A stretch of 64,000 bases of DNA from Candidatus Nanoarchaeia archaeon (GTDB lineage Bacteria > Patescibacteriota > Microgenomatia > Woykebacterales > RBG-16-39-9b): assembly GCA_036514715.1 (NCBI GenBank), contig DATBWR010000013.1, positions 6,779 through 70,778 on the forward strand, written 5' to 3'. The translations under genes were made by a program, and so were the position numbers. Positions 8,334 through 61,606 of the stretch are shown one piece after another. The stretch's first letter is position 1; each line of letters opens with the position of its first letter. Under the pieces are notes generated by a model. That model was not told the origin of the DNA. It saw nothing but the letters and a program-made list of their open reading frames with translations, and searched no databases.

Positions 8334-9035
8334 ATGACTAAAAAACTTTTGGCTACCAGCTTAATAATGTTCTCCGTTCTGATTACCCCGAAGTTAGCTT
8401 TTTCACAGGATTTTAGTGAAAATGCTCAAAAAAGGCTGGAAGAAATTGAAGCTAAAGCTGCGACCGCTAGCACCACTGCTACTTCCTCGGCAACCAAAAA
8501 AGAGGGCGAAGTAAGTTTTGTGGAAGGTACAGTTGCTGCTATCAACGGTACGGCTTTTTTAGTCAACACCGATGAAGGCTCACGGCTTATTTACACGACT
8601 GACAACACGAAATATTTTAATATTGACCCCTCGGGTAAAAAGTTAATCGGTTTTGGAGACATAAAGGTTGGTGAAACCATCATGGTTTTGGGGCTCTCCT
8701 CCCAAAGTAATTCCGGAACCGCCCGCATTATTGTCCGCGACACAGTTAAACAAATAACCACTTTTTCGGTTTTGGGGAAGGTGGTTGAGGTCAAAGACCC
8801 AAGCCTAACTTTAGAGAACTTATTGAGCGCAGATCTGCCTGCCTTGACTTTAACAACCAGTACCGACACCAAAATTCAATCTGGGGAAAAGACAATTGCT
8901 CTTATTGATCTTAAAGCTGGAGACAGGGTTGTGGCTGCCGGAACTATCGACGACAAAGGAAATTTTGTCGTTAAAACTATCCTGAGAATAAAAACTGCCC
9001 TCCAAGAACCCACTGCCACTACTTCGGCTCAATAA
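8334..9035 (+). CDS. Hypothetical secreted protein
   Basis: Signal peptide (MTKKLLATSLIMFSVLITPKLAFS); 233 aa. Confidence 0.45.
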   Translation: MTKKLLATSLIMFSVLITPKLAFSQDFSENAQKRLEEIEAKAATASTTATSSATKKEGEVSFVEGTVAAINGTAFLVNTDEGSRLIYTTDNTKYFNIDPSGKKLIGFGDIKVGETIMVLGLSSQSNSGTARIIVRDTVKQITTFSVLGKVVEVKDPSLTLENLLSADLPALTLTTSTDTKIQSGEKTIALIDLKAGDRVVAAGTIDDKGNFVVKTILRIKTALQEPTATTSAQ

Positions 9036-9053
9036 AATTTGTCGAATGGTAAG

Positions 9054-9077
9054 ATATATGAATGATCATTCATATAT
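9054..9077. repeat. 24-bp perfect palindrome ATATATGAAT-GATC-ATTCATATAT (copy a of 4)
   Basis: Read directly; lies between convergent gene ends and overlaps the stop of 9066..9347. Confidence 0.8.
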
Positions 9078-9347
9078 CTTTCGCAAAAGAGGTCTTTCTT
9101 CAATATGAAAGTCGACCTGCTTAAAACCAGGGTGGAGATGTACAGTCAGGGCTTTATTTTTATAAATCTTGCCGAAACCATCTGGAGCTGGTTCTGTGAA
9201 GACTTCTGAAGAAAGGCGAATATATTTCACTCCTCGATCCTCGACATATCTCCCACCACAGATCTCACCAGCTTCCTCAAATGAGGACGCCAGGATAACA
9301 TAATAACCAACACCCATCATTCGATAAACAACGTACGCTTTCATCAC
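9066..9347 (-). CDS. Hypothetical small protein
   Basis: 93-aa ORF, no family recognised. Confidence 0.35.
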   Translation of the reverse strand: MMKAYVVYRMMGVGYYVILASSFEEAGEICGGRYVEDRGVKYIRLSSEVFTEPAPDGFGKIYKNKALTVHLHPGFKQVDFHIEERPLLRKIYE

Positions 9348-15976: not shown

Positions 15977-17962
15977 TTACCCTCTTTTACCTAAGTTGGT
16001 TAATAATAAAGAATAATCAACGCTGTTAACAACGCCGTCATAGTTGATATCGTAGAGAGCCTCTTCGTTGCTCATCCCGGCCGGAACCATTCTTTCAAGG
16101 TCAGTTTGATCAATCACGTTATCACCATTAAAGTCGCCCATCACAAAGGCTGCAACTGACGCTTTAGTATCGTTGGTGAAAGTAAAACCTAAAGCCTGCA
16201 TTAAGGAATTTTTCGCCCAAACTTTCAAGACGTAATTGGTGTTCTTTGCCAACTGACTGTTGGTCTTTAAGATTAGCGTCCCACCCTTGCTTTCCACTAT
16301 CGCTTTTTGGGAAAAAGCGGTTTGCTCTACTTTAATCGTCACTTCCATACCACCTTTCAGGAAGGGGTTTGGAGCAAAGGTAAGGGTAATATCGCTACTT
16401 GTGGCTTTCGGCGCAGTTGACCCGGGTGGCGTAACTTTAGGAGCCGAAGATTGCGAACCGCCCGTTCCACCGCTGGTTCCACCAGTCGAACCACCGGTTG
16501 ATCCTCCAGTCGAACCACCGGTTGAGCCCCCAGTCGAACCACCGGTTGAGCCCCCAGTGGAGCCTCCTCCAGAAGAACCGCCGCCGGAGCTAGAAACAGT
16601 ATAACTGGTAGTAGCCTGGTTATTGGAATCATTGCTTTCGGCGATTTGACAGTCAGCATCGACAAAAACCCTCCCCGTGTAAGTACCCGCTGAAGATGGG
16701 GCGGTGAAGCTCAAAGTGAAATTACCGGTTGAAACACCTGCTCCCAAAGAACTAAAGGAACGGGAAGCCTGACCGTTGGGTGTTAGACATGGAACACTTG
16801 AAGGTTGGTTGGAATAAACATCAACCCAAAAAGTCCCAGAAGCAGCTCCACTACCGTTGTTAACAATATTGACAGTGGCAGTTACCGTCTGTCCTGAAGT
16901 TGGGTTTGTAGGCGACAGAGTAAAATTACTAACCGCCAAATCTGGCTGTGATGGCGGAGGTGGGGGTGAGGAGACGTTAACGGTTACTGAGTCAGAAGCA
17001 CTTCCCCCCGAACCGCTACAGGCCAAAGTGTAGGTTCTGCTGGCCGTTAGACTACCGGTAGATTCAGATCCGCTTGTGCCTTTGGTCCCGGACCAACCAT
17101 TAGAAGCTGTACAAGAAGTGGCATTGGTTGAAACCCAAGAAAGAGTCGCACTGGTATTGTAACTAATGGTAATTGGGCCGTTAGAGTTATTAGCTTTAAG
17201 ATCCACTGTTGGTTGGGGAGGAGGCGGAGGTGGTGGGGAAGTCACGTTAACGGTTACCGAATCGGACGCACTCCCCCCTGAGCCGCTACAGGCCAAAGTG
17301 TAGGTTTTTGCCGAGGTGAGATTACTCGTAGATTGTGAACCGCTAGTTGCTTTAGACCCTGTCCAGCCGTTAGAGGCCGTACAACCAGTTGCATTACTCG
17401 AACTCCAGGAAAGAGTCGCACTGGTATTGTAACTAATGGTAATTGGGCCGTTAGAGTTATTAGCTTTAATATCCACTGTGGGTGGGTTACAGTTGGGAGT
17501 GGTAATTGTAGGGGCAGCCGGGTAAGCAAGAGAGCCGCCGTTGGGATCGGAATTAAGATAGGCGTAAATTCTCCACCAGTAAGTGTAGCTGTCTTGCGGA
17601 GTTGCCCCGCCAATTGGGTTGTCCCTGTCCCAAATGAACCATTCTTGGGGAACAGGAAGGTAAAGGTTCCACCAGAGACCATCGTCAGCAAAACTTGAGT
17701 TGACATCAATGTCAATGTAACTACCGTCAGCGTAAGGCGGGTTCCAATCCCAAAAAAAGGTTACGCGCGGATCTCCTTGATAACAACTAGTGGTGTAAAC
17801 ATAAAGGTCAGTGGGTACGGGTGAGGAGGCTTGGGAACGAGTGTCTCTTGAAGTTAGAGCAGCGTATTGAGTAGCAGCAATGGCGGTGAAAAGCAAGACA
17901 GTTAAAACTAGAGAGAACCAGGTTGACCGGCTTAGTTTAATCTTCTTCAAGGAAAAAGACAT
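15977..17962 (-). CDS. Secreted surface protein: two tandem ~88-aa repeats, CARDB-like domain, Gly/Ser/Thr linker, C-terminal dockerin
   Basis: Dockerin duplicated Ca-binding segments GDFNGDNVIDQTD and YDINYDGVVNSVDYSLL; CARDB-like DLAVSNFTLSPTNPTSGQTVTATVNIVNNG; poly-Pro linkers. Confidence 0.6.
   Translation of the reverse strand: MSFSLKKIKLSRSTWFSLVLTVLLFTAIAATQYAALTSRDTRSQASSPVPTDLYVYTTSCYQGDPRVTFFWDWNPPYADGSYIDIDVNSSFADDGLWWNLYLPVPQEWFIWDRDNPIGGATPQDSYTYWWRIYAYLNSDPNGGSLAYPAAPTITTPNCNPPTVDIKANNSNGPITISYNTSATLSWSSSNATGCTASNGWTGSKATSGSQSTSNLTSAKTYTLACSGSGGSASDSVTVNVTSPPPPPPPQPTVDLKANNSNGPITISYNTSATLSWVSTNATSCTASNGWSGTKGTSGSESTGSLTASRTYTLACSGSGGSASDSVTVNVSSPPPPPSQPDLAVSNFTLSPTNPTSGQTVTATVNIVNNGSGAASGTFWVDVYSNQPSSVPCLTPNGQASRSFSSLGAGVSTGNFTLSFTAPSSAGTYTGRVFVDADCQIAESNDSNNQATTSYTVSSSGGGSSGGGSTGGSTGGSTGGSTGGSTGGSTGGSTGGTSGGTGGSQSSAPKVTPPGSTAPKATSSDITLTFAPNPFLKGGMEVTIKVEQTAFSQKAIVESKGGTLILKTNSQLAKNTNYVLKVWAKNSLMQALGFTFTNDTKASVAAFVMGDFNGDNVIDQTDLERMVPAGMSNEEALYDINYDGVVNSVDYSLLLTNLGKRG
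16470..16580. repeat. 12/24-bp coding tandem repeat encoding (GGST)n linker
   Basis: CCAGTCGAACCACCGGTTGAGCCC repeated about four times. Confidence 0.7.
16948..17476. repeat. Two ~264-bp intragenic direct repeats (~85% identical) within 15977..17962
   Basis: Duplicated DNA blocks encoding the two TVDIKANNSNGPITISYNTSATLSW... modules. Confidence 0.7.
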
Positions 17963-21359: not shown

Positions 21360-21383
21360 ATATATGAATAGTTATTCATATAT
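21360..21383. repeat. 24-bp palindrome ATATATGAAT-AGTT-ATTCATATAT (copy b)
   Basis: Read directly; intergenic between ctpA end and purC start. Confidence 0.8.
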
Positions 21384-21439: not shown

Positions 21440-22651
21440 TTATTTGAGGAGTTCTTTGGCTTTTGAGAGTTGTGGGTCGCTGCCAGCAGCAATATCTTCT
21501 TCGGTTAACTCAACTTTCACATCTGGTTCCAAACCCTTACCGTGCACCCAAACGCCACTCGGCGTTAACCATTTGGCCACAGTAATATGCAAACCCGACC
21601 CGTCTTTAAGATCAACCACGGACTGCACTGTGCCTTTACCAAAACTTGCCTCACCTACTACCTTAGCCTTTTTCTGATCTTTTAAGGCACCGGCGACAAT
21701 TTCCGAAGCCGAGGCACTGCCTTTGTTGATTAATACTACTAACTCTACGCCTCGTAAGCGTCCGTCGCGGTCAGAATAAAAAGACTGTCGCTTGCCGTCA
21801 GCATCTTCTTGCATCACCACCACATCTGCCTTTTTCAAAAATTCGCTCGCGACGTAAATTGCGCTGTCCAGCCTTCCACCCGGGTTGTTACGAACATCTA
21901 AAACTAATTTTGAAATGCCTTTGGTGGCAATTTCGTTGACAACACTGTCCCATTCTTTATTAGTGTTGTCGCCGAAACGGTTAATTCTCACTATTCCGAT
22001 CTCTCCGTCAACCACAAGCTTAACGGTTTTGATGGTGATTGTTTCGCGCGTTATCTCAAATTCATGCTCTGCGTCAGCTTCTCCTCGCACTACAGCGAGT
22101 TTTACTTTGGTGCTTGCTTTACCGCGGATTAGCTTCACAGCTTCGGCAATGGACAGTTTTGCGGCATCTTTCCCGTCAATTTTCACAATCCTGTCACCTG
22201 CCAAAACACCGTTTTTCTCTGCAGGTGAGCCTTCCAAGGGGGAGATCACCACTAGTTGATTATCCTTAACCCCAAGTTCAATCCCCACTCCTTCGAAGGT
22301 GCCGGCAAGTTCAGAGTTAAAAGTTTGGTTAGACTCAGGGTCAAAATAAGAAGTGTAAGGGTCTCCGGCTGCTTCAACCAACCCGCGGAGAGCACCCTGC
22401 AGAAGTTTGTCGCCCTCTAAGGTTTTCTTATCTAAAAACTTGGAATTTAGCTCATCCCAGGTCTGCCAAAATGGTGCGAAATCAACATTGTCTTTAGAAT
22501 AAAGTTTGTTAAGAACGTCGTACTTGGGCTGACCTTCTGGTAAAAACGGCAGGCTAACGTTGCGCCCGACCCAAATCCCCAAACCAAGCAGGAATAAACT
22601 GACAACCAGTTTCGGAAAAAATTGATTGAATTGTTTTGCTTTTTCAGCCAT
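21440..22651 (-). CDS. Carboxyl-terminal processing protease (S41, with PDZ)
   Basis: S41 motif GSASASEIVAGAL, PDZ domain, N-terminal TM. Confidence 0.85.
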   Translation of the reverse strand: MAEKAKQFNQFFPKLVVSLFLLGLGIWVGRNVSLPFLPEGQPKYDVLNKLYSKDNVDFAPFWQTWDELNSKFLDKKTLEGDKLLQGALRGLVEAAGDPYTSYFDPESNQTFNSELAGTFEGVGIELGVKDNQLVVISPLEGSPAEKNGVLAGDRIVKIDGKDAAKLSIAEAVKLIRGKASTKVKLAVVRGEADAEHEFEITRETITIKTVKLVVDGEIGIVRINRFGDNTNKEWDSVVNEIATKGISKLVLDVRNNPGGRLDSAIYVASEFLKKADVVVMQEDADGKRQSFYSDRDGRLRGVELVVLINKGSASASEIVAGALKDQKKAKVVGEASFGKGTVQSVVDLKDGSGLHITVAKWLTPSGVWVHGKGLEPDVKVELTEEDIAAGSDPQLSKAKELLK

Positions 22652-26649: not shown

Positions 26650-26763
26650 TTCGAAACTAGCGGATCAAGGTCGTTATCAATCCGGTAACGGCCTTTTCTT
26701 TTTGCAAAAAGTTCCAAAAAGATTTATCATTTACGCAAAATTGAAAATTAAAGGAGTTAGATC

Positions 26764-26952: not shown

Positions 26953-27314
26953 AAAAGTATCTGCTTGAAGTTTTGTTGTTGTACGGTGGTCTCATCGCTT
27001 TTAGCCTATTCCACATCTACCTTCTGCCGGAGCGCTTTCTAGTAATGCTCCTAGCAGAATTCATGGCCTTGGTAGTATTCATAACACAACCTAAGACAGG
27101 TTGGTATCTGCTACGCACCACTGGCATATCCGGGTCGGTTTGGATCATGGTTTTAGGTGTCTTAGCCACAGACCTAGCCGAAACTTGGCGCTGGCTGTTA
27201 GTAATCCTTGGAGGTATCGCTCTGTACCTCCTTTACTACTTCGGTACGCCAGAATTCTTTGAGGTGGTAAGAGATCTGAGGAGAGGTCAAAATAACCAAG
27301 CGGTTCAGCAATGA
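26949..27314 (+). CDS. Membrane protein
   Basis: 121 aa with 3-4 TM helices; overlaps the upstream gene by 4 nt. Confidence 0.45.
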   Translation: MKKYLLEVLLLYGGLIAFSLFHIYLLPERFLVMLLAEFMALVVFITQPKTGWYLLRTTGISGSVWIMVLGVLATDLAETWRWLLVILGGIALYLLYYFGTPEFFEVVRDLRRGQNNQAVQQ

Positions 27315-27334
27315 ACCGCTTCTTTTTCTGGAAA
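27297..27334 (+). terminator. Intrinsic terminator (palindromic, possibly bidirectional)
   Basis: AAGCGGUUCA-GCAA-UGAACCGCUU followed by CUUUUUCUGG; overlaps the stop codon. Confidence 0.7.
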
Positions 27335-27519
27335 ATCCGCCCTTTGGATTAGTCACCGTTAAAATGGGGTCCCCTTTGTGGAGTTGGCGTTTTTAAACTT
27401 GCAAAAAAGCAAGAGGAAGCGGTTCCCGAGGATGTCCCGATGATTTTTTGCTTAGTTTAACAGCCAACGCAGCAGGGGTGTCCTTTCTTGGCTACTTCTT
27501 TGGACAAGCAAAGAAGTAG
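27333..27519 (+). ncRNA. Candidate novel structured RNA, copy 1 of 2 (paralog at 49319..49509)
   Basis: ~85% identity to copy 2, invariant 33-nt core, compensatory substitutions in three helices, U-G wobbles valid only on the + strand. Confidence 0.5.
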
Positions 27520-33089: not shown

Positions 33090-33515
33090 TTGGCTATGCA
33101 AAAAACTAAAACCAACCCCAACGACTATATCGCTTCTCTAACCGAAGATAAACGGGAGGATATTAAAAAGCTCGACGAGTTAATTTCCAAAGTAATGGCA
33201 GGAAAATCGCGTGTTATGTGGGAGGGGGTTTTCTGGAGTGGCAGCGAGCAGAAAATCATTGGTTATGGCGATCTGACTTACATTAATTCGAAAAAAGAGA
33301 ACGTCGAGTGGTTTATGGTCGGACTCACCCTGCAGAAAAACTATATAAGTGTTTACGTGAATGCAGTTAATAAAAAACTCAACCTTGTGGAATACAAGGA
33401 CAAACTTGGCAAAGTAAAGGTCGGCAGAAGCAGCATTGGTTTTAACTCGTTGTCAGATATAAATATAGAGGTATTGGAAGAACTGATCAAAAAAGCCAAA
33501 GAACTTACAGGTTAA
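33090..33515 (+). CDS. DUF1801 (YdhG-like) domain protein
   Basis: PNDYIASLTEDKREDIKKLDELI...; resemblance judged from memory. Confidence 0.35.
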   Translation: MAMQKTKTNPNDYIASLTEDKREDIKKLDELISKVMAGKSRVMWEGVFWSGSEQKIIGYGDLTYINSKKENVEWFMVGLTLQKNYISVYVNAVNKKLNLVEYKDKLGKVKVGRSSIGFNSLSDINIEVLEELIKKAKELTG

Positions 33516-33519
33516 TTTT

Positions 33520-34116
33520 CTAACTAAAAAGGGCTATAGATAAGGCAATTACTGACACAAAAAGGCTGTAAAAACCCATTCTTGATGAGCTTATCTCATA
33601 CAACTTTCTATTACAAATATCGGCAAGTCTGTTTTCTAAAGAGGATAGGTACATTAGTTCGTCAGATAAAGCTTCTATCTCCGCCTGTTTTTCACTTATG
33701 TGTGTGGCAAGCATACACGCTTGGAATTCAGCTATATCGTCATGTAAATCCTTTAAGTCTAGTTGAAACCCATCAAGTTTTACTAAAATAATCTTTAAAG
33801 TACCTTCGCTATTTAGTACATAAAAAGATGAGCTTGCGTATCTTGCTTCATCATATAATGTTCTCAGTTGACTGGTTAGTTTGCTCGAAGCACTATATAA
33901 CTCACTAGCCCACACAAGATACTTTGAGAAGTCCCTAAATTTATCCAGTTTGGATGGATCGTGGTGATATTTTTTTGGAGCATCAAATCCGTCTACACGA
34001 GCTTCTGAGTTACCTTCTATTGCTTCATAGGCTGCGTTAAAAGCTTGATGCTTGATGTATATACGGCTTTTCCCCATTAAAGCAGGAATTTTACTTTTTT
34101 CTGGCTTGGAAAGCAA
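33520..34116 (-). CDS. Hypothetical protein with C-terminal TM anchor
   Basis: 198 aa, no family; adjacent to the TA island. Confidence 0.4.
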   Translation of the reverse strand: MLSKPEKSKIPALMGKSRIYIKHQAFNAAYEAIEGNSEARVDGFDAPKKYHHDPSKLDKFRDFSKYLVWASELYSASSKLTSQLRTLYDEARYASSSFYVLNSEGTLKIILVKLDGFQLDLKDLHDDIAEFQACMLATHISEKQAEIEALSDELMYLSSLENRLADICNRKLYEISSSRMGFYSLFVSVIALSIALFS

Positions 34117-34130
34117 TTTTTGGGAGTAGA

Positions 34131-34355
34131 CTACTTTATTTTGAGGAACTCTTCAACTGTCAGACCGCTCTGGCTTATAATCGAGCGCAAAGTCCCTGTT
34201 TTCAAATCTTTGGTGTGAAACGGAATTGGGATACGGGCTCTGGTTTTTGGGTTAAGCAAAAGGTAATGACTACCGGAAATATGGTCAACAATAAAACCGA
34301 TTTTCTTAAGTTTAGAAATTACTTCACGAGGTTTTTGTGGGGAAAGCTTGGGCAT
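34131..34355 (-). CDS. hicA: HicA-family mRNA interferase toxin
   Basis: GSH...KDLKTGTLRSIISQSGL signature; 74 aa. Confidence 0.7.
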   Translation of the reverse strand: MPKLSPQKPREVISKLKKIGFIVDHISGSHYLLLNPKTRARIPIPFHTKDLKTGTLRSIISQSGLTVEEFLKIK

Positions 34356-34580
34356 CTAAACTGAGACGGAGACCTTCTCTATTTCAGCGGTATCAGTTGG
34401 AATATTCTCACCGTGTTTTTTCAGAGAGGCAATATAGACTGAAATTGCATCTTTAATCATTTCTAGTGCTTCTTGCCGACTCTCGCCTTGAGTAACACAA
34501 CCCGCCAGTGCCGGCGCGGAGACAACATATCCACCATCAGGAGCTTTTTGTAAGTAAACCGTGTAGTTCAAGACTTTCAT
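34356..34580 (-). CDS. hicB: HicB-family antitoxin (UPF0150)
   Basis: MKVLNYTVYLQKAPDGGYVVSAPALAGCVTQGESRQEALEMIKDAI. The ORF-track start at 34613 is possible; I chose the internal Met. Confidence 0.6.
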   Translation of the reverse strand: MKVLNYTVYLQKAPDGGYVVSAPALAGCVTQGESRQEALEMIKDAISVYIASLKKHGENIPTDTAEIEKVSVSV

Positions 34581-34702
34581 GGTGAAACTATAACAAATAC
34601 CAAGTACTTCCACAAGAGAAGATAGTTCTCTAATCTTCCTGCCTCAGAAAGCAAATTTTAGAAACTTTACTTAACTGGGGTTGGATGTTAAGATAACCCC
34701 AA

Positions 34703-34936
34703 ATGGAGCATCTTCAGGTTATCCGCAATGGAATAGTTTTTGAGTTAGAACCGGAAAAGGAAGGCGGCTTCACTATTACCGTCCCTTCTCTACCCGGCTG
34801 TATTTCCTACGGAAAAACTATTGATGAAGCTCTAGAGCAAATAAAAGACGCCATGGCTGGTTGGGTCGAGGTTGCTAAAGAAGAAGGAATCGATATTCCA
34901 GATGAGGTTGAAAAATCTCTACTTGTTACTCGTTGA
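34703..34936 (+). CDS. hicB: HicB-family antitoxin (UPF0150)
   Basis: GGFTITVPSLPGCISYGKTIDEALEQIKDAM. Confidence 0.7.
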   Translation: MEHLQVIRNGIVFELEPEKEGGFTITVPSLPGCISYGKTIDEALEQIKDAMAGWVEVAKEEGIDIPDEVEKSLLVTR

Positions 34937-35164
34937 ATGAAACTAACCCCAATCAAACCAAAAGTGATGGTTATTATCCTGCAAAAAGCAGGATTTTCTA
35001 TACGTAAACAGACTGGTTCTCACACTATTTTGTTTAAGAAGGGGGTTCGCAGACCAATCTCCGTAGCTATACATCCCCGTGATTTACCTTCTGGAACTCA
35101 AAGGGCAATCCTGCGCCAGGCAGAAATTTCAATTGACGAGTTTAACAAATTAATTAAAGAATAA
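34937..35164 (+). CDS. hicA: HicA-family toxin
   Basis: KQTGSHTILFKKG...IHPRDLPSGTQRAILRQAEI. Confidence 0.7.
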   Translation: MKLTPIKPKVMVIILQKAGFSIRKQTGSHTILFKKGVRRPISVAIHPRDLPSGTQRAILRQAEISIDEFNKLIKE

Positions 35165-35825: not shown

Positions 35826-35849
35826 ATATATGAATACTTATTCATATAT
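35826..35849. repeat. 24-bp palindrome ATATATGAAT-ACTT-ATTCATATAT (copy c)
   Basis: Read directly; between convergent gene ends, immediately after a GGAAAGCAAATT repeat copy. Confidence 0.8.
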
Positions 35850-36303: not shown

Positions 36304-36681
36304 ATGCCTGTAATCGAGGTACGCCTTGGCGAGGCTTTCGCCAAGAGCATTGGTGTGGCAAACCGCACCAGTCTCAGTTACGAGTGGAGGCAGATCGTCA
36401 GCGAGGCCTTCGAGGCACCCATCGAATCCGTCGCCTGTCAGTGGCACCCTTGGTTCGACTCACAGAACACGGAGGGTATCGAGATCCTCGTCCACTTCTC
36501 CGCAGCCGATCCAGTAACGACCGTTGCACGTATCGACCGGGTTAGAAAAGCTCTTGCAGAATCCATACAGCGGAGCACATTCTTACCACCGGGAACCGAG
36601 GTTGGAATCTGGCCGGATCCAAAGCCTTATACTAGTTACAGCTCATGCCGCGTTGGAGAGCCAAGCCCCATAGGACCTTGA
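36304..36681 (+). CDS. Hypothetical protein, high-GC island gene (MPVIEVRL N-terminus, weakly tautomerase-like)
   Basis: Start at the Met following the strong RBS; the ORF track starts at 36268. Confidence 0.4.
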   Translation: MPVIEVRLGEAFAKSIGVANRTSLSYEWRQIVSEAFEAPIESVACQWHPWFDSQNTEGIEILVHFSAADPVTTVARIDRVRKALAESIQRSTFLPPGTEVGIWPDPKPYTSYSSCRVGEPSPIGP

Positions 36682-36723
36682 AATCTTTCAAGGTCCTTTT
36701 CTTTTTCCAAAACAAATTTAAAA

Positions 36724-38845: not shown

Positions 38846-39014
38846 TGAAAATTAAGTTTCCGTAGCTTATTTCACAAATTCTAACGTCTATATTTTGCGG
38901 TTCTTTTCGTAAATAGCAATGAACGCTTCCGGAATAAGAAGCGGCACGAAATTAATTATCTCTTAAAACTCAAGAGTTAAAGAAGAATGGAAAATTTATG
39001 AATAATTCCGAGGG

Positions 39015-39427: not shown

Positions 39428-39892
39428 GTGCCTCGTAGCAGCAGTAAAAGTGCCCGACGCAAAAAGAGACAGAAATGGGAAAAGAAGCACCCAAAAAACA
39501 GTTCCATACTTCCACCTGTCTACGTCGTTGACTCTACCCCAAAGAAGCCAGGGGTGTCTGTTCTCAGCCTGATGGGTAGGTTGGGGTTTTCTCTCACCCT
39601 CTTTCCGAAACCCAATCTGGAAGCGGTAAGGTTAGAGAGCGTGACAGTTCTCGAACTTGAGGAAGAAGACAAGGTCGAGGAAGAAACAGCCCTGACAGCA
39701 GCTGAGGCCATCCCACAGGCAGTAGTCATCGTAAAGGCTGTGGAGGAAGAACCATTACCGACAACTCTTGCAGAAACTCAACAAGCGGTGAAAGAAGCAC
39801 GGTCAAAGTGGCTTGAAACTACTGACCCAGAAGAGACGGATCGTCGTTACTATAGCTGGAAGCGGTTGAGAGAACACGAGAGAACTTTCTAA
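39428..39892 (+). CDS. Hypothetical basic/acidic protein
   Basis: 154-aa ORF with N-terminal KR-rich stretch. Confidence 0.4.
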   Translation: MPRSSSKSARRKKRQKWEKKHPKNSSILPPVYVVDSTPKKPGVSVLSLMGRLGFSLTLFPKPNLEAVRLESVTVLELEEEDKVEEETALTAAEAIPQAVVIVKAVEEEPLPTTLAETQQAVKEARSKWLETTDPEETDRRYYSWKRLREHERTF

Positions 39893-39929
39893 GAGACTTC
39901 AGAAATGAGGTCTCTTTTCTTTTTCGAAA

Positions 39930-44949: not shown

Positions 44950-45041
44950 AGGCAGTTAGTTCTTAAGGTTAATTTTAACAAAAAAGAAGAGCCCTTGCAT
45001 CTTAAGAAGGAAATGCAAGGGCTTGAGGTCAAGGTTTTCTC

Positions 45042-51168: not shown

Positions 51169-51305
51169 TTAAATAATTCTACCAATAACAAAGCCTACTG
51201 TCACCCCCTCCAACAATACTAATATAATGTATATATTAGTATTTATTGATCTGCGGAAAAATTTTCCCAAAGAAAAACGCCTCAAGCCAGTAAAAGGCTA
51301 AGGCG

Positions 51306-56994: not shown

Positions 56995-57519
56995 TCAAGC
57001 CTCCTTGAGCCAGTTTTGTACAACTTCGGCCGCGCGTAAGATACAACGAGCGGCGGTTTCTTTTTCTCCAGAGGTGAATTTCTGCAAGACAAAACCCTCA
57101 ACATCAATGTTTGGGCTGGCGGGTCGGCCAACACCTAGACGCAGGCGATGAAACTCTTGAGTTCCCAAAGCGCCAATTATTGACTCCACTCCTTTATGAC
57201 CGGCACTAGAGCGGTCGAATTGATGACGAATATCCCCTAGTTCCAAATCCACATCATCATGAACCACTAACATTTCGCTGGGTGTGATTTTGTAAAACTC
57301 CAAAGTTGCCTTTACAGAACGGCCAGAAAGGTTCATAAAAGTCTGGGGTTTAACTAAAATCGTATCAGGCAGTTTGTAAATAATTGCTTCTAACTTTTTA
57401 CTAACCTCTGGGGAAGCTACAGTTCCGGAGATAACTTTATCAATCACCTCAAAACCCAAGTTATGGCGCGTTCCAGCATATTCGGCACTAGGATTTCCTA
57501 AACCAACTACCAGTTTCAT
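56995..57519 (-). CDS. pth: Peptidyl-tRNA hydrolase
   Basis: MKLVVGLGNPSAEYAGTRHNLGF...; the ORF-track N-terminal extension to 57585 is rejected. Confidence 0.85.
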   Translation of the reverse strand: MKLVVGLGNPSAEYAGTRHNLGFEVIDKVISGTVASPEVSKKLEAIIYKLPDTILVKPQTFMNLSGRSVKATLEFYKITPSEMLVVHDDVDLELGDIRHQFDRSSAGHKGVESIIGALGTQEFHRLRLGVGRPASPNIDVEGFVLQKFTSGEKETAARCILRAAEVVQNWLKEA

Positions 57520-57565: not shown

Positions 57566-57589
57566 ATATATGAATGTTTATTCATATAT
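57566..57589. repeat. 24-bp palindrome ATATATGAAT-GTTT-ATTCATATAT (copy d)
   Basis: Read directly; in the divergent intergenic region upstream of pth. Confidence 0.8.
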
Positions 57590-58077: not shown

Positions 58078-58135
58078 AAAGAGTGTTCCGCAAACCAAAA
58101 ACCGCTTTCCAAAATAAGGAAGCGGTTTTCTTTTT

Positions 58136-58612
58136 CTAGATTATTTTGGGAACGGAAATTTCTTTGAGGATTGTCTCTTCCAGTTTTTCCATGGCAAAAG
58201 TTTCTTGAGGCTTTTCGTGATCGTAACCAAACAGGTGCAAAATCCCATGCACTACAAGTAAGTTCAACATCTCATCAACAAGCATATCTTCTTTGGCTGC
58301 TCTCACCAAGAGCTGCGGGTAAGAAATAATCACGTCCCCTAAATTAAGTACTTCAGAGTTCGGGGGGTTCACAAAACCAGAGCTCCCCTGACTCTGGGCA
58401 TCAAACGGAAAGGCTAAAACATCAGTAGTCTTATCCTGCCCCCGAAAATCCCTGTTAAGAACGCGCATTTTTCGATCGCCGATAATAGCAATAGCAACAC
58501 TTGTATCGCTGGTAGGCGCAATTTTTTCTAAAGTGACCTTAGCAGTCTTTATAATTTGGGATCGTCGAATTGGGTAGTGAGGTTCAACGGTGGCGCGAAC
58601 GTCAAGCGCCAT
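58136..58612 (-). CDS. ybeY: Endoribonuclease YbeY (rRNA maturation factor)
   Basis: HGILHLFGYDHE zinc-binding motif. Confidence 0.85.
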   Translation of the reverse strand: MALDVRATVEPHYPIRRSQIIKTAKVTLEKIAPTSDTSVAIAIIGDRKMRVLNRDFRGQDKTTDVLAFPFDAQSQGSSGFVNPPNSEVLNLGDVIISYPQLLVRAAKEDMLVDEMLNLLVVHGILHLFGYDHEKPQETFAMEKLEETILKEISVPKII

Positions 58613-60399: not shown

Positions 60400-60525
60400 A
60401 AAAAATTCACCTCCTTTTATCTATTCAGTGTTTTTCATTCTATTGTTAAGTAATTAACAAGTCAATTAGCAAACAAGCCAAAAGAAAACTCCCACTGAAA
60501 GATTGATCAATGGGAGCTTTTAACT

Positions 60526-60835: not shown

Positions 60836-61112
60836 ACTGGTGGAGAAAGTTTAGTTGAGTGTATCTTAAGCCGCAGCAGGGAAAGCGGTACGTGTAAGCT
60901 CAAGGAGGAGCGCAAGAGATCAACTCAAACCTTTCTCCATCAGGACCAAAACGTGAGCGAGGGTCGGGACAAGAAGAACCTAATTTGTCACGGGTCTGGA
61001 GGTTTGTGTCTTCAGCTTGTCCTTAACAGTCGGCCCTTTCTCTACCTTAGGCTCGGTGTGTTCTCTCCCCCACACTAGTGGTCGCGCCGCACACCGAGCC
61101 TCTTTCATTTTC
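60836..61112 (+). ncRNA. Candidate sRNA (~275 nt) between a consensus -10 promoter and an intrinsic terminator
   Basis: 390-bp ORF-free interval; 20-bp interrupted long-range helix GGUGGAGAAAG-UUUAGUUGAG / CAACUCAAAC-CUUUCUCCAUC closing a ~60-nt domain; 3' terminator stem GGCUCGGUGUG/CACACCGAGCC plus UCUUUCAUUUUC. Confidence 0.35.
61050..61112 (+). terminator. Intrinsic terminator (11-bp perfect stem, large loop, U-tract)
   Basis: Read directly. Confidence 0.5.
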
Positions 61113-61522
61113 TAAAAATTTCCTGAAGAAAGTTTTGCCCGTGCCTGAGTGTTAGTTTTAGCTTTTAGTGCAGTTTCAACAAATCTTAGTAATTTGCTCG
61201 TCTTATCTTTATTTGAAAACTTTGCTGTCTTGGACAAGAATTTGCTGAATTCATCTGAGGAATCTAAATAGTTCTTAGCTTGTCGAAAGGTTTCGTAACT
61301 GACTTTTAAGGCCTCTTTAACTTCTGTTTCTGAATACCCACCTACAATCATTAAATAAAGACCCAATCTTTTGGCCAACATTCCTTTTTCTTCTTTAGTG
61401 AGAAAACGTTGCAAAAAATCTTCAATCTGAGCTTGATTACTGGAAGCTAAAACTTGAGCAAATGTTTCATTAACCTGATTCCAAACGGACTTCTTTAATG
61501 GTGTCTTTGAAACCCTCGTCAT
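61112..61522 (-). CDS. Putative TrpR/YerC-like small DNA-binding protein
   Basis: Start at internal MTRVSK; helical protein with KEEKGMLAKRLGLYLMIVGGYSETEV segment; weak family assignment. Confidence 0.35.
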   Translation of the reverse strand: MTRVSKTPLKKSVWNQVNETFAQVLASSNQAQIEDFLQRFLTKEEKGMLAKRLGLYLMIVGGYSETEVKEALKVSYETFRQAKNYLDSSDEFSKFLSKTAKFSNKDKTSKLLRFVETALKAKTNTQARAKLSSGNF

Positions 61523-61606
61523 AATTACTAATATAATTATTATATTAGTATTAGTCAACTGTAGAGTTTTGTTAATTTAGACTAATAATCAAGCTATTTA
61601 CTTAAA

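What the first reader, a model, noticed from the sequence alone, without database searches (positions are those of the whole stretch)
9054..9077. Four copies of a 24-bp perfect palindrome ATATATGAAT-N4-ATTCATATAT in intergenic regions
Copies at 9054-9077 (centre GATC), 21360-21383 (AGTT), 35826-35849 (ACTT) and 57566-57589 (GTTT) each have identical, perfectly complementary 10-bp arms and a variable 4-bp centre. A degenerate half-copy lies near 38990. The contexts differ: two sit between convergent gene ends, one between tandem genes, and one in a divergent promoter region. A gene-oriented signal is therefore unlikely, and an AU-only stem without a U-tract is not an intrinsic terminator. Exact arm conservation with a free centre fits either a dimeric DNA-binding protein site (nucleoid protein, R-M or homing-type recognition site) or a hairpin recognised in single-stranded form, as REP/PATE-like elements are by IS200/IS605-type TnpA. 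The arm half-site TGAATGA is reminiscent of, but not identical to, Fur/PerR-type 7-1-7 boxes.
Basis: seen in the sequence. Interest (0 to 1): 0.55.

Follow-up and report, generated by a model that had tools for sequence, protein, structure and literature searches.

The report
Scattered copies of a repressor-binding palindrome
The four identical palindromes are real and match the DNA site that zinc/cadmium-sensing ArsR/SmtB repressors bind in many bacteria, but in this tiny uncultured bacterium they are scattered about every 17 kb between unrelated genes, away from promoters and with no repressor gene found nearby.

Summary
There are four perfect copies of ATATATGAAT-N4-ATTCATATAT at the stated coordinates, none expected by chance, and no imperfect copies even at 5 mismatches or fewer. 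The symmetry extends further, to AR-ATATATGAAT-R NN Y-ATTCATATAT-YT (about 13-2-13).

The same 24-mer occurs in many phyla. In 41 loci it lies 0-80 bp upstream of an ArsR/SmtB-family gene (PF01022, SH[Q/H]L recognition helix, 33/41 with a CzrA/SmtB-type zinc-site signature). In others it lies next to HMA P-type ATPases and CDF exporters. So it is the conserved 12-2-12 operator of SmtB/CzrA-type metal repressors.

The window belongs to a CPR bacterium related to Ca. Woykebacteria. Two more perfect copies lie on another contig of the same organism, giving 6 in about 103 kb. Five relatives have none in about 94 kb.

Unlike true operators, these copies are not embedded in promoters (0/12 half-sites versus 22/41). 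They show no gene-orientation preference (2 convergent, 1 divergent, 3 tandem), sit next to no metal genes except possibly a TerC/DUF475 gene, and no ArsR gene occurs in the 103 kb. They are not intrinsic terminators, MITEs or ARG boxes.

Best reading: dispersed high-affinity sites for a trans-encoded ArsR/SmtB-type dimer. What they do here is unknown.

The parts
9054..9077 (.). Copy 1: ATATATGAAT-GATC-ATTCATATAT. With its flanks it is a perfect 30-bp palindrome (9051-9080). It lies in the 30-bp gap between convergent genes 8334-9035(+) and 9066-9344(-), and supplies the last four codons and the stop (AAG ATA TAT GAA TGA) of the 92-aa minus-strand gene.
21360..21383 (.). Copy 2: centre AGTT. 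On the minus strand it lies 56 bp after the stop of the S41 C-terminal protease gene (21440-22651) and 121 bp before the purC start (21238). There is no canonical terminator in this gap.
35826..35849 (.). Copy 3: centre ACTT. It lies in the 139-bp gap between convergent genes, 98 bp after the DUF2283 gene stop (35727) and 17 bp after the stop of an 80-96-aa membrane-protein gene (35867, minus strand).
57566..57589 (.). Copy 4: centre GTTT. It lies in a divergent region, 83 bp upstream of the ATG of a 134-aa gene of unknown function (57673, +) and about 46 bp upstream of the likely pth start (ATG at 57519, minus strand). The longest pth ORF starts inside the arm.

Best explanation
Each copy is a consensus-strength recognition site (12-2-12 type hyphenated inverted repeat, TGAA/TTCA cores with ATA/TAT outer blocks) for a homodimeric winged-helix repressor of the SmtB/CzrA branch of the ArsR family, encoded elsewhere in the genome. 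One recognition helix (...QSxxSH[Q/H]L...) would read each arm, and the central two base pairs would not be contacted. In most bacteria this sequence overlaps the promoter of the repressor gene or of a metal exporter, and metal binding releases the repressor. In this CPR bacterium the site has multiplied to about one per 17 kb in intergenic DNA, is kept perfect by selection, and has lost the promoter context. The copies therefore most likely act as protein-occupied points on the chromosome. Possible roles are a dispersed regulon for the copies upstream of purC, pth, the HU gene and a TerC/DUF475 gene, a transcriptional roadblock or insulator at gene ends, or a titration/architectural role, rather than classical operators. 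Shown: the sequence identity with bona fide operators, the shared extra constraints, the all-or-none perfection, the lineage specificity, and the absence of promoter geometry. Inferred: that an ArsR/SmtB protein exists in this genome and binds these sites, and what binding achieves.
For: (1) Chance is excluded: 4 copies against 0 in shuffles, and 6 perfect copies in about 103 kb of this organism. (2) The identical 24-mer is found in over 110 species genomes. In 41 loci it lies 0-80 bp upstream of a 100-139-aa protein that forms one cluster, is PF01022 HTH_5/ArsR, and carries SH[Q/H]L in all 41, an alpha5 DxH...H..H/E signature in 33/41 and an alpha3 CxC in 18/41. Eight more loci flank HMA-domain P-type ATPases and four flank CDF exporters. 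Further ArsR-adjacent cases appear in metagenomes. (3) Positions outside the searched pattern agree between the window copies and true operators: purine next to TGAAT (12/12 versus 76/82, never C) and purine at -1 (12/12 versus 64/82). (4) Published SmtB/ArsR operators have the same skeleton. The AztR-regulated aztA site TACAATTGAATA-GT-TGTTCAATTGTT shares TGAATA-GT with copy 2 (PMC8790569). (5) The arms are identical in all copies while the centres differ, with no compensatory variation. This points to sequence-specific, two-fold symmetric recognition rather than mere pairing. (6) In Ca. Saccharicenans/Aminicenantes, which also carry several copies per genome and do encode an adjacent ArsR (L010), orthologous sites keep perfect arms while flanks are 77-83% identical and the centre changes. 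This shows purifying selection on the arms. (7) This genome uses perfect-arm, variable-centre palindromes as operators elsewhere: a TACTAATATA family overlaps the promoter of a TrpR-like gene.
Against: No ArsR/SmtB gene was found in about 103 kb of this organism, although most of its genome was not available. The one ArsR seen in a relative (L141) has a different upstream palindrome. The copies are not in operator geometry: 0 of 12 half-sites have a sigma70-like promoter abutting the palindrome, versus 22/41 for true operators and 1.7% for background. Position -2 is A here but mostly T in true operators, where TA+ATAT forms the -10 box. Two of six copies lie between convergent gene ends, where nothing can be repressed; only 2 of 59 classifiable sites in single-copy lineages do. 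Apart from possibly TerC/DUF475, the neighbours are not metal genes. Six perfect copies and no degenerate one is unusual for a regulon.
Confidence: 0.55

Rival explanations
1. A very short selfish palindromic repeat (REP/REPIN- or MITE-like) that spreads through intergenic DNA. It would be recognised as a hairpin in single-stranded DNA by a transposase such as a RAYT or an IS200/IS605-type TnpA. The identity with the ArsR/SmtB operator would be coincidental, or would reflect an operator that became mobile.
For: The distribution among gap types (2 convergent, 1 divergent, 3 tandem) mirrors that of all intergenic gaps (8/13/28), so there is no gene-orientation preference. All copies are perfect with none degenerate, as after recent spread. 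The family is lineage-specific: 6 copies in about 103 kb versus 0 in about 94 kb of five relatives. At the copy 1 position the relatives carry an ordinary GC-rich hairpin instead.
Against: No Y1 or other transposase appears in the Pfam-annotated gene calls of about 103 kb. There are no target-site duplications at any boundary, and no flank similarity above a shuffled null. The centres differ between copies, so a simple copy-paste of the unit did not occur recently. Copies are single and 12-22 kb apart, not in clusters or doublets. There is no REP-type conserved 5' tetranucleotide. The extra R/R...Y constraints are the same as in protein-bound operators. Only 9 single hits occur in 2.9 million viral contigs.
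Confidence: 0.13
2. Binding sites for a different dimeric DNA-binding protein of this lineage that happens to share the TGAAT-N4-ATTCA core. Candidates are ArgR (ARG box) or a chromosome-organising, nucleoid-associated protein comparable to RacA/ram, Noc/NBS, SlmA/SBS or MatP/matS.
For: The inner 18 bp, TATGAAT-RNNY-ATTCATA, fits the ARG-box consensus TnTGAATwwwwATTCAnw (recalled from established knowledge, not tested here). The density of about one per 17 kb, the lack of promoter geometry and the orientation independence resemble architectural site families more than regulons. No ArsR gene was found locally.
Against: Across 110 loci the motif associates with ArsR/SmtB genes and metal exporters, never with arginine genes. 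Conservation extends over about 28 bp, beyond an 18-bp ARG box, and the boxes are single rather than paired. No ArgR or candidate architectural protein was identified. Known architectural sites also occur inside genes, whereas all 6 copies here are intergenic, and only 11% of the window is intergenic.
Confidence: 0.15
3. A structural hairpin in RNA or DNA (weak bidirectional terminator, RNA 3'-end stabiliser or cruciform) that works through pairing alone.
For: Five of six copies lie within 100 bp downstream of a stop codon. The predicted RNA hairpins have free energies of -7.3 to -15.2 kcal/mol with z-scores of -2.3 to -5.0. The palindrome never shares a gap with a canonical terminator: of the 8 convergent gaps, 5 have a canonical terminator, 2 have the palindrome and 1 has neither. 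A relative has a GC-rich hairpin at the copy 1 position.
Against: The arm sequence is identical in all copies with no compensatory changes, which pairing alone does not require. There is no U-tract, whereas this genome's terminators share a TTCTTTTT tail. Copy 4 lies in a divergent promoter region. The terminator complementarity is not significant (p about 0.1-0.3). There is no Rfam match.
Confidence: 0.07

Closest known systems
SmtB/CzrA/AztR-type (ArsR family) 12-2-12 operators of metal-responsive repressors
   Same: About 26-28-bp hyphenated inverted repeat with TGAA/TTCA cores and ATA/TAT outer blocks. The exact 24-mer lies upstream of ArsR/SmtB genes, HMA P-type ATPases and CDF exporters in many phyla. 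The purine preferences at -1 and next to TGAAT are shared. Published operators have the same skeleton (PMC8790569).
   Different: There are 6 or more copies at about one per 17 kb, none overlapping a sigma70-like promoter. Two lie between convergent gene ends. No adjacent repressor or metal-efflux gene was found. Position -2 is A instead of the T that forms the -10 box in true operators. Every copy is perfect.
REP/REPIN elements mobilised by RAYT transposases, and MITEs
   Same: Short extragenic palindromes, orientation-independent, found between convergent and tandem genes, lineage-specific, with a loop more variable than the arms.
   Different: Only about 28 bp. Copies are single rather than clustered. 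There is no conserved GTAG-like 5' end, no target-site duplication, no internal sequence, no transposase in about 103 kb, and tens rather than hundreds of copies are inferred.
Chromosome-organising palindromic site families (RacA-ram, Noc-NBS, SlmA-SBS, MatP-matS)
   Same: Perfect or near-perfect short palindromes bound by a dimeric protein, tens of copies spaced 10-40 kb apart, not tied to promoters (from established knowledge).
   Different: Those families are bound by MerR-like, ParB, TetR or RHH proteins, occur inside genes as well, and are confined to a macrodomain. Here all copies are intergenic, the sequence is an ArsR/SmtB operator, and the genome-wide distribution is unknown.
Multi-copy sites of the same palindrome in Ca. 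Saccharicenans / Aminicenantes
   Same: The identical 24-mer occurs several times per genome (4-5 or more in a truncated scan) and is often not next to an ArsR gene. Some copies lie between convergent genes. The arms are conserved across species.
   Different: The density there is much lower (about 4 per 0.9 Mb on the long contigs of one MAG). Flanks are mostly TA...TA as in true operators. An adjacent ArsR gene exists (L010). Neighbours include an ArsP permease and molybdenum-cofactor genes.

Membership tests
ArsR/SmtB 12-2-12 operator | About 26-bp hyphenated inverted repeat with TGAA...TTCA cores and AT-rich outer blocks | tested here: met
   Compared with published operators in PMC8790569.
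ArsR/SmtB 12-2-12 operator | The same sequence is found at ArsR/SmtB-regulated promoters elsewhere | tested here: met
   41 loci have the exact 24-mer 0-80 bp upstream of a PF01022 protein, and others lie next to HMA-ATPase or CDF genes.
ArsR/SmtB 12-2-12 operator | A cognate ArsR/SmtB repressor is encoded in the same genome | tested here: inconclusive
   An HMM built from the 41 regulators finds nothing in about 103 kb of this organism.
ArsR/SmtB 12-2-12 operator | The site overlaps or abuts the promoter of the regulated gene (arsR itself, or a metal efflux or sequestration gene) | tested here: not met
   0/12 half-sites have a 9/12-or-better sigma70-like promoter in operator geometry, versus 22/41 true operators. 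Two copies are between convergent genes. The neighbours are purC, pth, the HU gene, TerC/DUF475 and hypothetical genes.
ArsR/SmtB 12-2-12 operator | Binding by the repressor dimer and release by metal | not testable with these tools
   Needs EMSA, DAP-seq or ChIP.
REP/REPIN (RAYT-associated) | A RAYT (Y1 transposase) gene in the genome, typically flanked by REPs | tested here: inconclusive
   None in the Pfam-annotated gene calls of about 103 kb. The whole genome was not available.
REP/REPIN (RAYT-associated) | Imperfect palindrome with a conserved 5' tetranucleotide, occurring in clusters or inverted doublets, hundreds of copies | tested here: not met
   Single perfect units 12-22 kb apart.
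MITE | Terminal inverted repeats enclosing internal sequence, flanked by target-site duplications | tested here: not met
   Only 2-4 bp lie between the arms, and there is no target-site duplication at any of four tested boundaries.
Intrinsic (Rho-independent) terminator | GC-rich stem followed by a U-tract | tested here: not met
   The stems have 1-2 G-C pairs and no T-run. This genome's terminators have 3 or more GC pairs and a TTCTTTTT tail.
ARG box (ArgR/AhrC operator) | 18-bp TnTGAATwwwwATTCAnw, usually in pairs, upstream of arginine genes | tested here: not met
   The core sequence fits, but the boxes are single, conservation spans 28 bp, and no arginine genes flank the motif in any of 110 loci.
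Fur/PerR/Zur 7-1-7 box | TGATAAT-N-ATTATCA type heptamers separated by 1 bp | tested here: not met
   The spacing between TGAAT and ATTCA is 4 bp in all copies, and the half-site differs (consensus from established knowledge).

The most novel reading that the evidence does not exclude
In an ultra-small CPR bacterium, a metal-sensing ArsR/SmtB repressor and its operator have been co-opted into a genome-wide system. Tens of perfectly conserved, promoter-less operator copies would serve as metal-responsive roadblocks, insulators or architectural anchor points between genes, in places standing in for terminators at convergent gene ends. Alternatively, this is a first case of a transcription-factor operator that has itself become a dispersed intergenic repeat.
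Probability: 0.2. Interest if true: 0.75.

Novelty: new variant of a known kind. Interest (0 to 1): 0.45.

Why it matters
The palindrome itself is a known kind of element, an ArsR/SmtB operator, so its identification is ordinary. Its behaviour in this genome is what is unusual. It occurs at a density of about one per 17 kb, every copy is perfect, and it is decoupled from promoters, from gene orientation and from metal genes, while five relatives have none. CPR bacteria have very few regulators and almost nothing is known about how they control or organise their genomes. A single repressor with tens of high-affinity sites would be a major feature of such a cell. It also gives a directly testable prediction: a specific recognition helix should exist in the genome, and the protein should bind a defined 28-mer. 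A parallel, less dense expansion in Aminicenantes suggests that operators of this family can be recruited repeatedly for wider roles.

Tried and rejected
(1) A longer repeat unit or mobile element. Alignment of +/-150 bp, pairwise local alignment of all 12 flanks against a shuffled null, and target-site-duplication tests found nothing.

(2) Intrinsic terminator. Rejected from folding and from comparison with this genome's own terminators.

(3) ARG box/ArgR. This was my first recalled resemblance. It was rejected because no arginine genes flank the motif anywhere and because conservation exceeds the 18-bp box.

(4) Known RNA family. None at the gathering threshold.

(5) Conservation at orthologous positions in relatives. 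Five relatives (HisS 70-76% identity, DUF475 86-87%) are syntenic but carry no copy, so phylogenetic footprinting was impossible. All strain contigs are 100% identical, so there is no polymorphism information either.

(6) Finding the cognate repressor. There is no ArsR in the window, in the extensions on both sides, or in 21 kb of a second contig. The ArsR in the Woykebacteria relative L141 belongs to an ArsR-AHSA1 module with a different palindrome.

(7) The first homolog search used a repetitive surface protein and was uninformative.

(8) One contig look-up failed because the ORF start was wrong.

The metagenome collection evidently lacks most contigs of this organism, so it could not be used for counting.

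(10) Viral contigs: 9 single hits, none informative.

(11) Literature searches for the arm sequence and for CzrO returned nothing useful.

Full report
OBSERVATION. The pattern ATATATGAAT-N4-ATTCATATAT occurs exactly four times in the window: at 9054, 21360, 35826 and 57566, with centres GATC, AGTT, ACTT and GTTT. No match occurred in 100 dinucleotide-preserving shuffles. Allowing up to 3 mismatches or up to 5 adds no copy. The 10-base core TGAAT-N4-ATTCA at 1 mismatch or fewer also finds only these four. The family is therefore all-or-none. The 'half-copy near 38990' is a single half-site with one mismatch (38994-39003) and no partner arm, and about two such half-sites are expected by chance. 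Similarity does not extend into the flanks. Pairwise alignment of all flanks gives scores no higher than a shuffled null, and no target-site duplication exists at any plausible boundary.

ORGANISM AND GENE CONTEXT. Exact-protein look-ups place the window on a 132-kb metagenomic contig (ENA ERZ27254762 k141_2636750). The same contig was assembled identically in several JGI and Logan samples. The gene content is many small hypothetical genes, HicAB and PIN modules, DUF2283, and scattered housekeeping genes. The HisS relatives are Ca. Woykebacteria at 58-63% identity and unnamed relatives at 70-79%. Together these indicate a CPR/Patescibacteria bacterium of the Microgenomates group.
- Copy 1 lies in a 30-bp gap between convergent genes and supplies the last four codons and the stop codon of a 92-aa gene.
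- Copy 2 lies 56 bp after an S41 protease gene and 121 bp before purC.
- Copy 3 lies between the convergent ends of a DUF2283 gene and a small membrane-protein gene.
- Copy 4 lies between divergent pth and a 134-aa gene of unknown function.
There are no metal-related genes and no transposases in the window.

WHAT THE SEQUENCE IS. In many Firmicutes the palindrome sits directly after a TTGACA-N17-TATAAT promoter and before a ribosome-binding site. I clustered the ORFs that start next to the motif. One cluster holds 41 proteins of 100-139 aa from Bacillota, Alpha- and Gammaproteobacteria, Chloroflexia, Thermotogota, Fibrobacterota, Campylobacterota, Saccharibacteria and Aminicenantes. A second cluster holds eight 620-800-aa proteins, a third holds four ~340-aa proteins, and a fourth holds three cysteine desulfurases.

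Pfam identifies the first cluster as ArsR family (PF01022 HTH_5), the second as HMA-domain P-type ATPases and the third as cation-efflux (CDF) proteins. All 41 regulators carry the SH[Q/H]L recognition-helix motif. 33 have a DxH...H..H/E signature like the alpha5 zinc site of CzrA/SmtB, and 18 have an alpha3 CxC. Five further ArsR-adjacent cases appeared among metagenome hits. The literature describes SmtB/ArsR repressors as binding 12-2-12 inverted repeats such as AATACCTGAACA-GA-TGTTCAAGTATT and TACAATTGAATA-GT-TGTTCAATTGTT (PMC8790569). The latter shares TGAATA-GT with copy 2. The 24-mer is thus the conserved operator of SmtB/CzrA-type metal repressors.

THE SAME RECOGNITION RULES APPLY IN THE WINDOW. 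I wrote each site as two half-sites and compared positions that were not part of the search pattern. The base next to TGAAT is a purine in 12/12 half-sites of this organism, 76/82 of ArsR-adjacent operators (never C) and 54/54 in Aminicenantes. Position -1 is a purine in 12/12, 64/82 and 49/54 respectively. The centre is therefore R-NN-Y, and the unit is a 13-2-13 repeat that fits the 12-2-12 architecture. The arms are identical in every copy and show no compensatory variation, while the central bases differ. That is the signature of a two-fold symmetric protein reading the sequence, not of selection for pairing.

MORE COPIES IN THE SAME ORGANISM, NONE IN RELATIVES. A metagenome scan with the organism-specific extended form recovered a contig that does not overlap the window (L135). 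Its tetranucleotide signature correlates 0.94 with the window. The window's own 10-kb chunks give 0.90-0.95 and relatives give 0.86-0.90. The same region lies on a 194-kb contig from the same ENA sample as the window contig (L140, r = 0.95). That locus holds two perfect copies:
- one 52 bp after a Carb_kinase/YjeF_C gene and 160-290 bp before a TerC/DUF475 gene;
- one 15 bp after ymdB and 79 bp before the HU gene.
Extending the window by 9.0 kb and 8.8 kb added no copy. In total there are 6 perfect copies in about 103 kb, or about one per 17 kb, and no imperfect one.

Five relatives are syntenic: L124, L125 and L127 around hisS, and L141 and L142 around DUF475, about 94 kb in total. None has a copy at 4 mismatches or fewer, where about 5.5 would be expected at the same density. 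At the copy 1 position two relatives carry ordinary GC-rich stem-loops. The expansion is therefore specific to this lineage.

HOW THESE COPIES DIFFER FROM TRUE OPERATORS.
(a) Promoter geometry. In 22 of 41 ArsR-adjacent operators a sigma70-like promoter scoring 9/12 or better has its -10 box abutting or overlapping the outer arm; often the flank TA plus the arm's ATAT gives TAATAT. The background rate in this window's intergenic DNA is 1.7%. None of the 12 half-sites of this organism reaches 9. Position -2 is A in 11/12 half-sites here but mostly T in true operators.
(b) Orientation. The six copies lie in 2 convergent, 1 divergent and 3 tandem gaps. Those are the proportions of all gaps in the window (8/13/28). 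In single-copy lineages only 2 of 59 classifiable intergenic sites are convergent (which used crude ORF-based gene calls).
(c) Neighbours. None is an ArsR or metal-efflux gene. TerC/DUF475 is the only plausible metal-related neighbour.
(d) No ArsR-family gene was detected with an HMM of the 41 regulators in any DNA of this organism that I could reach. A Woykebacteria relative encodes an ArsR next to AHSA1 genes, but its upstream palindrome is TTAATTAAGTC-AA-GACTTAATTAA, so it is a different specificity.
(e) All six copies are intergenic, although only 11% of the window is intergenic.

RIVALS.
- Terminator. The RNA hairpins are moderately stable (-7 to -15 kcal/mol), but they have 1-2 G-C pairs and no U-tract. 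This genome has clear canonical terminators with GC-containing stems and a recurrent TTCTTTTT tail. The palindromes never share a gap with a canonical terminator, and of the eight convergent gaps five have a terminator, two have the palindrome and one has neither. The numbers are too small for significance, so this is only a hint that a bound protein could act as a roadblock there.
- REP/MITE-like element. Orientation independence, lineage specificity and perfection fit. However, there is no transposase, no target-site duplication, no flank similarity, no clustering, and the centres differ.
- ARG box. The inner 18 bp fit the consensus I recalled, but no arginine genes flank the motif in any locus, and conservation spans 28 bp.
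- No Rfam family matches.
- Viral contigs hold only nine single, uninformative hits.

THE AMINICENANTES PARALLEL. Ca. Saccharicenans and other Aminicenantes MAGs (53-59% GC) carry several copies each, despite the truncated scan. One copy is next to an ArsR gene (L010). Others precede an ArsP-type permease, MoaA, a ThiS/MoaD-like protein, amidases and DUF456, and some lie between convergent ORFs. In the orthologous trio L027/L077/L100 the arms are perfect while the flanks are 77-83% identical and the centre changes from GTTC to GACC. This shows purifying selection on the arms, so dispersed copies of this operator can be functional. The density there is far lower than in the window organism.

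CONCLUSION. The palindromes are real, non-random and under sequence-specific constraint. They match in sequence, and in the extra positional preferences, the operator of SmtB/CzrA-type ArsR-family repressors. The most likely mechanism is binding of such a dimer encoded elsewhere in the genome (confidence about 0.55). Because they fail the promoter-context feature of that family, I do not file them as classical operators. They are an orphan, dispersed, lineage-specific variant whose role (regulon, roadblock/insulator, titration or architecture) remains inferred. Whether the cognate protein exists in this genome is the decisive open point.

Noticed in passing
window 51217-51241 and 61526-61550: A second perfect-arm palindrome family, TACTAATATA-N5-TATATTAGTA (2 copies, 0 expected by chance). 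On the minus strand, the copy at 61526-61550 lies between a TTGACT -35-like hexamer and the ATG of a Trp_repressor-like (PF01371) gene (61112-61522). It contains a TATATT -10-like hexamer at 17-nt spacing, and the ATG follows only about 7 nt later, which looks leaderless. The other copy is about 50 bp upstream of recR. This looks like an autoregulatory operator plus one regulon member.
   Followed up: partly
window, e.g. 26650-26700, 27300-27335, 36672-36710, 39890-39925, 45000-45041, 58097-58140, 60480-60525: The canonical intrinsic terminators of this genome share a nearly fixed tail, TTCTTTTT, after GC-containing stems. Several serve both genes of a convergent pair.
   Followed up: partly
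loci L003-L103 (Ca. Saccharicenans / Aminicenantes MAGs): The same 24-mer is multi-copy in Aminicenantes genomes of 53-59% GC. The arms are perfectly conserved across species while the flanks diverge (trio L027/L077/L100). The neighbours are diverse (ArsP permease, MoaA, ThiS/MoaD-like, amidases). This may be an expanded ArsR/SmtB regulon in that phylum.
   Followed up: partly
L010:3720-4115 (Ca. Saccharicenans sp. Yes71-14): The ArsR-family protein next to the palindrome has a basic, Pro/Lys/Ala-rich C-terminal tail (...GGRPAKTPRPAPGKTAGAKP). It is reminiscent of the tails of nucleoid-associated proteins.
   Followed up: no
L141:8750-9210 (Ca. Woykebacteria GCA_040903525.1): An ArsR-family gene (114 aa) in an operon with two AHSA1/SRPBCC genes has a different perfect palindrome upstream, TTAATTAAGTC-AA-GACTTAATTAA. 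It lies about 900 bp from the DUF475/TerC gene that carries the window-type palindrome upstream in the window organism.
   Followed up: no
window 16953-17486: Two tandem ~266-bp repeats (82% identical) inside the 661-aa Ser/Thr-rich surface-protein gene (15977-17962, minus strand). Homologs are large repetitive CPR surface proteins.
   Followed up: no
window 9066-9080: The arm of copy 1 encodes the C-terminal residues K-I-Y-E and the stop codon of the 92-aa gene. Homologs in the relative L124 end differently.
   Followed up: partly
L029:7896-7919, L099, L101: In a Patescibacteria MAG, a Lachnospiraceae MAG and a Saccharicenans MAG the palindrome lies 59-95 bp upstream of a class-V aminotransferase/cysteine desulfurase gene. 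This hints that Fe-S or cysteine-desulfurase genes may be a recurrent target of this operator type.
   Followed up: no
L138:1869 and L139:4682 (metagenome BNJU01): Two near-identical loci in one metagenome carry the palindrome with the same flanks (tttcaaa...ttgatta). At least one (L138) has an ArsR-family gene nearby.
   Followed up: no
window 33373-35164 region (L117 12801-13834): Two adjacent HicA/HicB toxin-antitoxin pairs in opposite orientation, next to DUF2283 and other small genes, in a 38% GC stretch just upstream of copy 3.
   Followed up: no
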